From a virus (lineage: Duplodnaviria > Heunggongvirae > Uroviricota > Caudoviricetes), in the IMG/VR virus record IMGVR_UViG_3300029094_000007: DNA of 13,715 bases; one strand, given 5' to 3'. The notes below the pieces were generated by a model. It searched no databases. It saw only the letters and a list, made by a program, of their open reading frames with translations, and was not told the origin of the DNA. Within the stretch, counting starts at the first letter, position 1, and every line of letters begins with the position of its first letter. Shown in pieces: positions 13,060-13,715 of this stretch. Made by a program: the position numbers and the translations under genes.

Positions 13060-13524
13060 TTACTTTAAACACTGTTCGGTTATGTATTGCTGAGCACCTT
13101 CAAGTTGGGCCTGCATCATTACCAGTCGTTCCCGGAGGGTGAAATAATCCCGTTCAGCGGTGTCTGCCAGTCTGGGGGAGACTGCATTATCCACGCTGGA
13201 GGTGGCGGTGGCTTCACGCACTGACTGACAGACTGCTTTGATGCGCAACCGACGACGACCAGCGGCAACATCATCACGCAGAGCATCATTTTCAGCTTTC
13301 GCATCAGCTAACTCCTTCAGGTATTTTGCATCGAGTGCAGCAACATCACGCTGGCGTATCTGCATGTCAGTAATGATTGCGGTCGCCTGGTTGAGTTTTT
13401 CCGTCACATTATCGCGTTGCGCTTTGTAGGTAATGGCATTATCACGGTAATGATTAACAGCCCATGACAGGCAGACGATGATGCAGATAACCAGAGCATA
13501 AATAATCACGGCAACTCTGCTCAC
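13060..13524 (-). CDS. Rz: Spanin inner-membrane subunit Rz (i-spanin), 154 aa from GTG at 13524
   Basis: Translation is near-identical to lambda-family Rz as I recall it (...[27 protein letters not shown]...[31 protein letters not shown]...[19 protein letters not shown]...). The track starts at a TTG at 13539; the GTG at 13524 corresponds to the lambda MSRV start and follows GGGGGA. Confidence 0.9.
13119..13304 (-). CDS. Rz1: Spanin outer-membrane lipoprotein subunit Rz1 (o-spanin), 61 aa, embedded in Rz in another frame
   Basis: [20 protein letters not shown]... carries a lipobox (VVGC) and a proline-rich segment (PPPPPAW), matching lambda Rz1 closely. Lies entirely inside Rz in a different frame. 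Confidence 0.9.
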
Positions 13525-13715
13525 TGCTCTATCCCCCAACAGGCTAATGCGCTCTCCTGATCACGACGAATAACCTGACCGTAACAGTTATTTGAACGAA
13601 GGCGGCAATCGCGCCCCCTGTCCTTAATCCACCAGCGAATTGTAGTGGTCAAGTAATACTGGCCACGGTTTTACAGTAAAAATGGTATCTGTTCTCTGAC
13701 TCTTCCGGCGTCAGC
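13522..13715 (-). pseudogene. 3' end of the gene upstream of Rz, interrupted by an in-frame TAA; possibly an inactivated endolysin
   Basis: The minus-strand frame that ends with TGA overlapping the Rz GTG (GTGA) is open from the window edge, except for one in-frame TAA (plus-strand 13671-13673), about 49 codons before its end. The post-stop tail ends ...[19 protein letters not shown], loosely reminiscent of phage lysozyme C-termini. Identity unverified. Confidence 0.3.

What the first reader, a model, noticed from the sequence alone, without database searches (positions are those of the whole stretch)
13522..13715. Gene immediately upstream of Rz appears interrupted by an in-frame stop
In lambdoid lysis cassettes the endolysin gene ends at or overlapping the Rz start. 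Here the frame that ends in a GTGA overlap with Rz is open to the window edge but contains a TAA at 13671-13673. Either a lysis gene is inactivated by a nonsense mutation while the spanins remain intact, or this is a Rac-type arrangement where a non-lysis gene precedes Rz. Only about 190 bp is visible, so I cannot decide.
Basis: partly seen in the sequence, partly recalled or inferred. Interest (0 to 1): 0.4.

Follow-up and report, generated by a model that had tools for sequence, protein, structure and literature searches.

The report
IS element inserted in prophage endolysin
The gene in front of Rz is the last 39 codons of a phage lysozyme gene cut by an insertion sequence (ISEc31); the "in-frame stop" lies inside that element, so this is an ordinary mobile-element disruption of a prophage lysis gene.

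Summary
The TAA at 13673-13671 (minus strand) and the GTGA overlap with the Rz start are real. The frame, however, is not one gene. Every related E. coli or phage sequence matches the window only up to base 13640. Bases 13521-13640 are identical (120 of 120) to the last 39 codons plus stop of a 177-aa GH24 lysozyme that precedes the same Rz in intact relatives. Bases 13641-13715 are identical (75 of 75) to the right end of ISEc31, an IS3-family insertion sequence of 1258 bp. That end holds the 26-nt terminal inverted repeat, which finishes exactly at 13641, and the end of the transposase gene. The TAA is an out-of-frame triplet inside the transposase coding region (tgT AAa, Cys-Lys). It is not a nonsense mutation. 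The endolysin is therefore disrupted after nucleotide 414 of 534 by an IS insertion. Rz, Rz1 and the other 13.6 kb of this Rac-family prophage are nearly identical to relatives with an intact lysozyme, so the event looks recent. The window ends inside the IS, so I cannot tell whether the 5' part of the lysozyme survives on the other side. This kind of event is already known, and interest is low.

The parts
13641..13715 (-). Last 75 nt of the insertion sequence ISEc31 (IS3 family). The window ends inside the element.
   Evidence: 75/75 identical to annotated ISEc31 copies, and a match is present in 1786 of 5426 complete E. coli genomes. Identical to the last 75 nt of the 1258-bp element in L002. 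Four copies at different genomic sites all diverge immediately after ...ACCACTACA, which corresponds to window base 13641.
13641..13666 (-). Right terminal inverted repeat (IRR) of ISEc31, GTGGCCAGTATTACTTGACCACTACA
   Evidence: 26-nt inverted repeat paired with the left repeat TGTAGTGGCACAGTAAATTTGGCCAC in full copies. It ends in CA, and the left repeat starts with TG.
13649..13714 (-). 3' end of the ISEc31 transposase (orfB): 21 codons LTPEESENRYHFYCKTVASIT plus the TGA stop at 13651-13649
   Evidence: The translation is identical to the C-terminus of the annotated ISEc31 transposase. The annotated CDS ends 8 nt before the IS end.
13671..13673 (-). The reported TAA. It is an out-of-frame triplet made of the third base of the transposase Cys codon TGT and the first two bases of the Lys codon AAA.
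   Evidence: It is not in the reading frame of any gene.
13521..13640 (-). 3' remnant of the endolysin gene (GH24 lysozyme, rrrQ-like): codons 139-177 plus the TGA stop at 13523-13521, which overlaps the Rz start. ATT at 13640-13638 is the predicted 3-bp target duplication.
   Evidence: 120/120 identical to nt 415-534 of the intact 534-nt lysozyme gene. The intact protein matches PF00959 over residues 33-167. All 10 contigs shown that carry the identical Rz have the intact 177-aa lysozyme in this position.
13060..13524 (-). Rz (inner-membrane spanin subunit), 154 aa, GTG start, intact
   Evidence: PF03245, E 1.2e-48. The exact protein is on record in 497 blocks of the assembly collection.
13119..13304 (-). 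Rz1 / rzoD (outer-membrane lipoprotein spanin subunit), 61 aa, embedded in the +1 frame of Rz, intact
   Evidence: PF06085, E 1.1e-18. Annotated as rzoD in relatives. The ORF is listed.
11465..12940 (-). trkG potassium-transporter gene directly downstream of Rz/Rz1, a marker of the Rac prophage family. The annotated 485-aa start would be at 12922.
   Evidence: PF02386, E 1.5e-143. The same order is found in relatives and in K-12 Rac. GC is 37.5% against 46.9% for the window.

Best explanation
A copy of the IS3-family insertion sequence ISEc31 sits in the endolysin gene of a Rac-family lambdoid prophage of E. coli. It lies after nucleotide 414 of 534, at codon Ile139, in the same orientation as the lysis genes.

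The window shows only the right-hand junction. This consists of the last 75 nt of the IS (transposase C-terminus, stop codon, 26-nt terminal repeat) abutting the last 39 codons of the lysozyme gene. That gene ends in the usual 4-nt GTGA overlap with Rz.

Shown: the junction, the identity of both sides, and intact Rz and Rz1.

Inferred consequences:
- The endolysin is non-functional. The stub in the window lacks the SAR membrane segment and the whole region aligned to the solved phage 21 endolysin up to residue 138. The part that may survive upstream would lose the last 38 residues, including the last 28 of the PF00959 domain, and would end after 9 IS-encoded residues.
- On induction the prophage could kill the cell through its phage-21-type holin. 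It could not degrade the wall or release particles unless another prophage supplies a lysozyme.
- Rz translation, which is normally coupled to the lysozyme stop, is probably reduced.
- The event is recent, because the other 13,640 bases are 99-100% identical to prophages with an intact gene.
For: 1. All matches in 5,426 complete E. coli genomes and 50,697 phage records stop at window base 13640. This holds for the 716-nt query and for the whole window.
2. Bases 13641-13715 are 100% identical to the ISEc31 right end. The alignment of four ISEc31 copies with different flanks places the IS terminus exactly at the window junction.
3. The transposase C-terminus is identical.
4. The lysozyme remnant is 120/120 identical to the intact gene, while the preceding 75 nt are 18/75 identical.
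5. The intact cassette in relatives is phage-21-type holin (PF04971), YdfR (DUF1327), 177-aa lysozyme (PF00959), then Rz and Rz1. The lysozyme stop overlaps the Rz start.
6. The intact lysozyme aligns with the solved phage 21 endolysin and with RrrD (3hde, 3hdf, 4zpu) over residues 31-174.
7. ISEc31 makes 3-bp target duplications (GTA, TGT, ACC) in 3 of 4 copies examined, one of them in the same prophage family.
Against: The left end of the IS and anything beyond it are outside the window. A complete element, a target-site duplication and the 5' part of the lysozyme are therefore not demonstrated.

The exact junction was not found in any collection searched, so it rests on this one sequence. 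The window ends 75 nt into a multicopy repeat, which is typical of a short-read contig end.

No experiment bears on loss of lysis. The catalytic-residue assignment (E35/D44/T50, by analogy with phage 21 R) comes from my own knowledge of that enzyme plus the alignment.
Confidence: 0.93

Rival explanations
1. IS-associated rearrangement rather than a simple insertion. Here the ISEc31 copy marks the edge of a deletion or inversion, and the 5' 414 nt of the lysozyme gene (and possibly the holin and further upstream prophage DNA) are no longer adjacent. This is a variant of the main explanation. It has the same junction and a different left side.
For: The left side is unseen. One of the four ISEc31 copies examined (L003) has no matching 3-bp duplication (TAC on the left, ATG on the right), so rearranged copies do occur. 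K-12 Rac shows that this prophage family does lose its lysis region by deletion.
Against: Three of four copies have clean 3-bp duplications. The rest of the prophage is undecayed and 99-100% identical to intact relatives, which fits a single recent transposition.
Confidence: 0.22
2. One reading: a point (nonsense) mutation to TAA inactivates an otherwise continuous endolysin gene.
For: A TAA is in frame with the lysozyme stop codon.
Against: The 75 nt that contain the TAA have only random-level identity (18/75) to the intact gene in register. They are 75/75 identical to ISEc31. The position in register would be codon 128, but there is no homology around it.
Confidence: 0.01
3. A K-12 Rac-type arrangement, in which a non-lysis prophage gene naturally precedes Rz.
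For: The order Rz-Rz1-trkG-ynaK is the Rac order.
Against: In K-12 Rac, homology to the intact relative begins 27 nt inside Rz, and rzpR is a pseudogene fused to ydaW sequence. The window has the native Rz start and 120 nt of lysozyme. Relatives with an identical Rz all carry a full lysis cassette.
Confidence: 0.01
4. An assembly artefact, in which the junction between the IS end and the lysozyme is a chimeric join at a repeat and the strain's lysozyme gene is really intact.
For: The window ends 75 nt inside a multicopy element. The junction is unique among all collections searched.
Against: The join falls to the base at the true terminus of the IS inverted repeat. Transposition predicts this, and a random chimera does not. 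Unique lysozyme sequence has no repeat that would mislead an assembler.
Confidence: 0.03

Closest known systems
ISEc31 (IS3 family insertion sequence of E. coli)
   Same: The last 75 nt are identical, including the 26-nt right inverted repeat ending in CA and the last 21 codons plus stop of the transposase.
   Different: Only the right end is visible. This particular insertion site (lysozyme nt 414/415) was not seen in 5,426 complete E. coli genomes.
RrrQ/RrrD-type prophage lysozymes and the phage 21 R SAR endolysin (GH24, PF00959)
   Same: The remnant is 100% identical to the 3' end of a 177-aa lysozyme that RefSeq annotates as lysozyme, or as rrrQ in BL21-type strains at 93% identity. The intact relative aligns to 3hde/3hdf (deposited as 'Lysozyme'; the phage 21 endolysin, from my own knowledge) and to 4zpu (RrrD). 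It follows a phage-21-type holin.
   Different: Only residues 139-177 are encoded here. The N-terminal membrane segment and the catalytic region are absent from the window.
Cryptic prophage Rac of E. coli K-12 (ydaW-rzpR-rzoR-trkG-ynaK)
   Same: Same gene order downstream: Rz, Rz1, trkG, ynaK. Identity is about 98% from 27 nt inside Rz onwards.
   Different: K-12 lost the holin, the lysozyme and the Rz start by deletion. It also lost most structural genes. The window keeps the Rz start, a lysozyme stub and a full set of terminase, portal and capsid genes. The lesion here is an IS insertion.
IS-disrupted prophage genes in general (for example IS5 in lomR of K-12 Rac)
   Same: A transposable element interrupts a prophage gene and leaves the neighbouring genes intact. 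The K-12 Rac record itself annotates IS5Y splitting lomR. ISEc31 also sits in a head-tail gene of the same prophage family in strain KK05-19.
   Different: The target gene and the element differ. Nothing is mechanistically new.

Membership tests
IS3 family / ISEc31 | Imperfect terminal inverted repeats beginning with TG and ending with CA | tested here: met
   The right repeat at 13641-13666 is identical to that of full copies and pairs with the left repeat there (26 nt, 77% complementary). The left repeat is not in the window.
IS3 family / ISEc31 | DDE (rve) transposase made from orfA-orfB by programmed frameshift | tested here: inconclusive
   Only the last 21 codons are in the window, and they are identical to the annotated ISEc31 transposase. 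The reference orfB has rve domains, and RefSeq notes a programmed frameshift.
IS3 family / ISEc31 | 3-bp direct duplication of the target site flanking a complete 1258-bp element | not testable with these tools
   The left end lies beyond the window edge, and the junction is absent from all collections searched. Reference copies show 3-bp duplications in 3 of 4 cases. The predicted duplication here is ATT.
GH24 phage lysozyme (PF00959) | Sequence match to the family | tested here: inconclusive
   The 39-aa remnant alone gives no Pfam hit. Its DNA is 120/120 identical to the 3' end of a gene whose product matches PF00959 at E 1.4e-23 over residues 33-167.
GH24 phage lysozyme (PF00959) | Catalytic Glu/Asp/Thr in the N-terminal region (E35/D44/T50 by alignment with phage 21 R) | tested here: not met
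   The window encodes only residues 139-177. The aligned catalytic region, residues 31-60 of the intact relative, is missing. As encoded here the gene is a fragment, not a functional member.
Two-component spanin Rz/Rz1, embedded type | An Rz with an N-terminal membrane segment, and an Rz1 lipoprotein ORF wholly embedded in the +1 frame | tested here: met
   PF03245 at E 1.2e-48 and PF06085 at E 1.1e-18. Rz1 at 13304-13119 lies inside Rz at 13524-13060. The lipobox-like VVGC is visible.
K-12 Rac-type lysis-region deletion | Non-lysis sequence (ydaW) fused to a 5'-truncated Rz | tested here: not met
   The K-12 breakpoint is 27 nt inside Rz. The window has the full Rz start and a lysozyme stub.

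The most novel reading that the evidence does not exclude
The insertion may be more than neutral damage. By removing the endolysin it could lock a fully equipped Rac-family prophage into the chromosome, so that the host keeps the trkG transporter and other prophage genes. The outward-facing TTGACC in the IS right repeat (13652-13647) might also form a hybrid promoter that drives Rz, Rz1 and trkG independently of phage late transcription. The repeated IS3-family hits in this prophage family (KK05-19, TUM9803) would then reflect selection rather than chance.
Probability: 0.05. Interest if true: 0.3.

Novelty: already known. Interest (0 to 1): 0.08.

Why it matters
It matters mainly for annotation. 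The lysozyme stub should be called a pseudogene fragment disrupted by ISEc31, not a nonsense allele. The prophage should be scored as probably lysis-defective even though its spanin and structural genes are intact. It is also a small reminder that a frame running into a window or contig edge can continue by chance into unrelated mobile-element DNA. No open question becomes testable through this.

Tried and rejected
1. I searched for the source genome or any sequence carrying the same junction. Searches used the right junction in complete E. coli genomes, the species-representative genomes and metagenome contigs. I also looked up the 43-aa ORF spanning the junction by exact sequence. The predicted left junction was searched with 0-8 nt of slack in both large collections and in complete E. 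coli genomes. All were negative, so the left side of the IS stays unknown.

2. I looked up contigs carrying the identical Rz, hoping one would be the disrupted allele. All 10 places shown have the intact lysozyme.

3. Pfam on the 39-aa remnant gave no hit because it is too short.

4. The consensus promoter and terminator scan of 12900-13715 found no minus-strand promoter-like site at the IS/lysozyme junction and no terminator. This gives no support for an IS-derived hybrid promoter.

5. A literature search for ISEc31 returned only surveys of mobile elements in resistant E. coli, judging by titles and abstracts (none was read in full). None is about prophage lysis genes.

6. The nonsense-mutation reading and the K-12 Rac-type reading were both rejected.

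Full report
**1. The observation**

All long ORFs of the window are on the minus strand. Read on that strand, Rz begins with GTG at 13524-13522. That frame has a single internal stop, TAA at 13673-13671. The coordinates and the triplet are therefore correct. "Open to the window edge" means only 14 codons beyond the TAA. At the window's base composition a 14-codon stretch is free of stops about 45% of the time, so that part carries no information.

**2. What the two sides of the frame are**

A megablast of window 13000-13715 against 5,426 complete E. coli genomes gave many 100% matches. Every one began at query position 76, which is window base 13640. The same boundary appeared when the whole window was used, both against E. 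coli genomes (709 genomes cover at least 80% of it, the best at 100% identity) and against phage records.

The matched part is annotated as lysozyme followed by lysis protein and rzoD. In strain O177:H21 the lysozyme CDS is 534 nt, and the match starts at its nucleotide 415. In register with an intact copy, the window's 120 nt before and including the stop are 120/120 identical. The 75 nt before that are 18/75 identical, which is the random level.

Those 75 nt (13641-13715) were searched on their own. They are 100% identical to a sequence present in 1,786 genomes, in up to 16 places per genome, on chromosomes and plasmids. It is annotated as "IS3-like element ISEc31 family transposase".

I fetched four copies from unrelated sites (next to iha, trbC, flhA and an IS66). 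They are identical to the window up to ...ACCACTACA and diverge from one another and from the window immediately afterwards. In full copies this end pairs with TGTAGTGGCACAGTAAATTTGGCCAC as a 26-nt imperfect terminal inverted repeat, and the element is 1258 bp long. The window's other reading frame, LTPEESENRYHFYCKTVASIT*, is the exact C-terminus of the annotated transposase, with its TGA at 13651-13649.

The TAA that attracted attention is the T of the Cys codon TGT plus the AA of the Lys codon AAA of that transposase. It is in no gene's frame.

**3. What the intact locus looks like**

An exact-sequence look-up of the window's Rz protein found it in 497 blocks of the public assembly collection. 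In all 10 places displayed, a 177-aa PF00959 lysozyme ends 4 nt into Rz. It is preceded by a 71-aa phage-21-type holin (PF04971), a DUF1327/YdfR protein and an antisense 90-aa ORF.

The intact lysozyme has a Gly/Ala-rich hydrophobic N-terminus (YGLSAAVLALIAVGAPAP). It aligns over residues 31-174 with the solved phage 21 endolysin and with RrrD (3hde, 3hdf, 4zpu). From what is established for phage 21 R, this is the pinholin/SAR-endolysin type of cassette, with the catalytic Glu-Asp-Thr at 35/44/50. That last assignment is my inference from the alignment and from prior knowledge. It is not a test made here.

Rz (PF03245, E 1e-48) and the embedded Rz1 (PF06085, E 1e-18) are intact in the window.

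**4. Mechanism and consequences**

Shown: the right end of ISEc31 abuts lysozyme nucleotide 415, and the IS is transcribed in the same direction as the lysis genes.

ISEc31 copies have 3-bp target duplications in three of the four cases examined: GTA, TGT, and ACC in strain KK05-19, where the element sits in a head-tail gene of the same prophage family.

Inferred: for a simple insertion the left junction would read ...GAGGCGATT|TGTAGTGGCAC..., duplicating the Ile139 codon. The upstream fragment would then encode residues 1-139 plus CSGTVNLAT and a stop. It would lack the last 38 residues, including the last 28 of the Pfam domain. The stub in the window cannot be an enzyme.

Without an endolysin the spanins have no access to their function, and holin triggering would kill the cell without lysing it. 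This holds unless another resident prophage supplies a lysozyme. E. coli genomes have a median of three loci matching this lysozyme-Rz region.

The overlap of the lysozyme stop with the Rz start suggests translational coupling, so Rz output is probably lowered. That is inference only.

Because the other 13,640 bases are 99-100% identical to prophages with an intact gene, the insertion looks recent rather than part of long decay.

**5. What cannot be decided**

The window stops 75 nt inside the IS, which looks like the end of a short-read contig at a repeat. Neither the observed junction nor the predicted left junction exists in the complete E. coli genomes, the species-representative genomes or the metagenome contigs. 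The junction-spanning 43-aa ORF is not on record either. A simple insertion (my estimate about 0.7-0.75) can therefore not be told apart from an IS-bounded deletion or inversion (about 0.2). One of the four reference copies lacks a duplication, so rearranged copies exist. A chimeric assembly join is unlikely, because the join coincides to the base with the true IS terminus.

**6.

The nonsense-mutation reading is refuted.

The Rac-type reading is also refuted in the sense intended. In K-12 Rac, homology to the intact relative begins 27 nt inside Rz, and rzpR is a pseudogene joined to ydaW sequence. The window keeps the Rz start and the lysozyme 3' end.

The prophage is nevertheless a Rac relative. 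The order Rz-Rz1-trkG-ynaK is the same, and it continues into a TAGT-family glycosyltransferase, the small and large terminase subunits, a portal, a Mu-F-like head protein and a P22-type coat protein, which K-12 has lost.

**7. Comparison with what is known, and verdict**

IS insertions in prophage genes are commonplace. The K-12 Rac record itself carries IS5 inside lomR. ISEc31 is a catalogued element. Both components and the mechanism are known. Only this particular allele is unrecorded in the collections searched.

The one mildly novel reading left open is selected "locking-in" of the prophage, or an IS-derived outward promoter for Rz and trkG. It has no support, because the promoter scan finds nothing at the junction.

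The finding is explained and ordinary, and interest is low.

Noticed in passing
window 9683-11327 (-): A full-length ParB_N-domain protein (YnaK-like, 262 aa, 10539-11327) overlaps a 293-aa TET-associated glycosyltransferase family protein (PF20691, E 4e-35, 9683-10564; RefSeq calls it 'GREB1-related'). Both lie directly upstream of the small terminase gene. This may be a phage DNA-modification pair, but no TET/JBP gene was seen in the window. K-12 Rac keeps only a truncated ynaK.
   Followed up: no
window 11465-12940 (-): The potassium-transporter gene trkG sits between the spanin genes and the packaging genes, as in K-12 Rac. Its GC content is 37.5% against 46.9% for the window, consistent with a foreign insert carried by the prophage.
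   Followed up: partly
window 8330-9424 (-): The small terminase subunit is unusually long (364 aa). The Terminase_2 domain matches only residues 122-316, so the N-terminal 120 residues or so are unassigned.
   Followed up: no
L016 14249-15506 (strain KK05-19); H56 (strain TUM9803): The same prophage family carries ISEc31 at another site in KK05-19, in a head-tail gene, in the opposite orientation and with a 3-bp duplication ACC. In TUM9803, a prophage 100% identical to the window carries an IS3-family transposase gene and is about 1.3 kb longer over the matched span. This prophage is hit by IS3-family elements repeatedly.
   Followed up: partly
L017 4208 (K-12 MG1655 Rac) versus L006 6028: In K-12 Rac the homology to intact relatives begins 27 nt inside Rz. 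The annotated ydaW CDS therefore runs into former Rz sequence, and the annotated rzpR pseudogene covers only part of the Rz-homologous DNA.
   Followed up: partly
window 13641-13715 (window edge): The window ends 75 nt inside a multicopy IS, which is the pattern expected at the end of a short-read contig.
   Followed up: no
L001 748-901 and L016 249-402: Relatives carry tRNA-Thr and tRNA-Gly genes between the Q-like antiterminator region and the holin. They also carry a conserved 90-aa antisense ORF between ydfR and the lysozyme gene.
   Followed up: no
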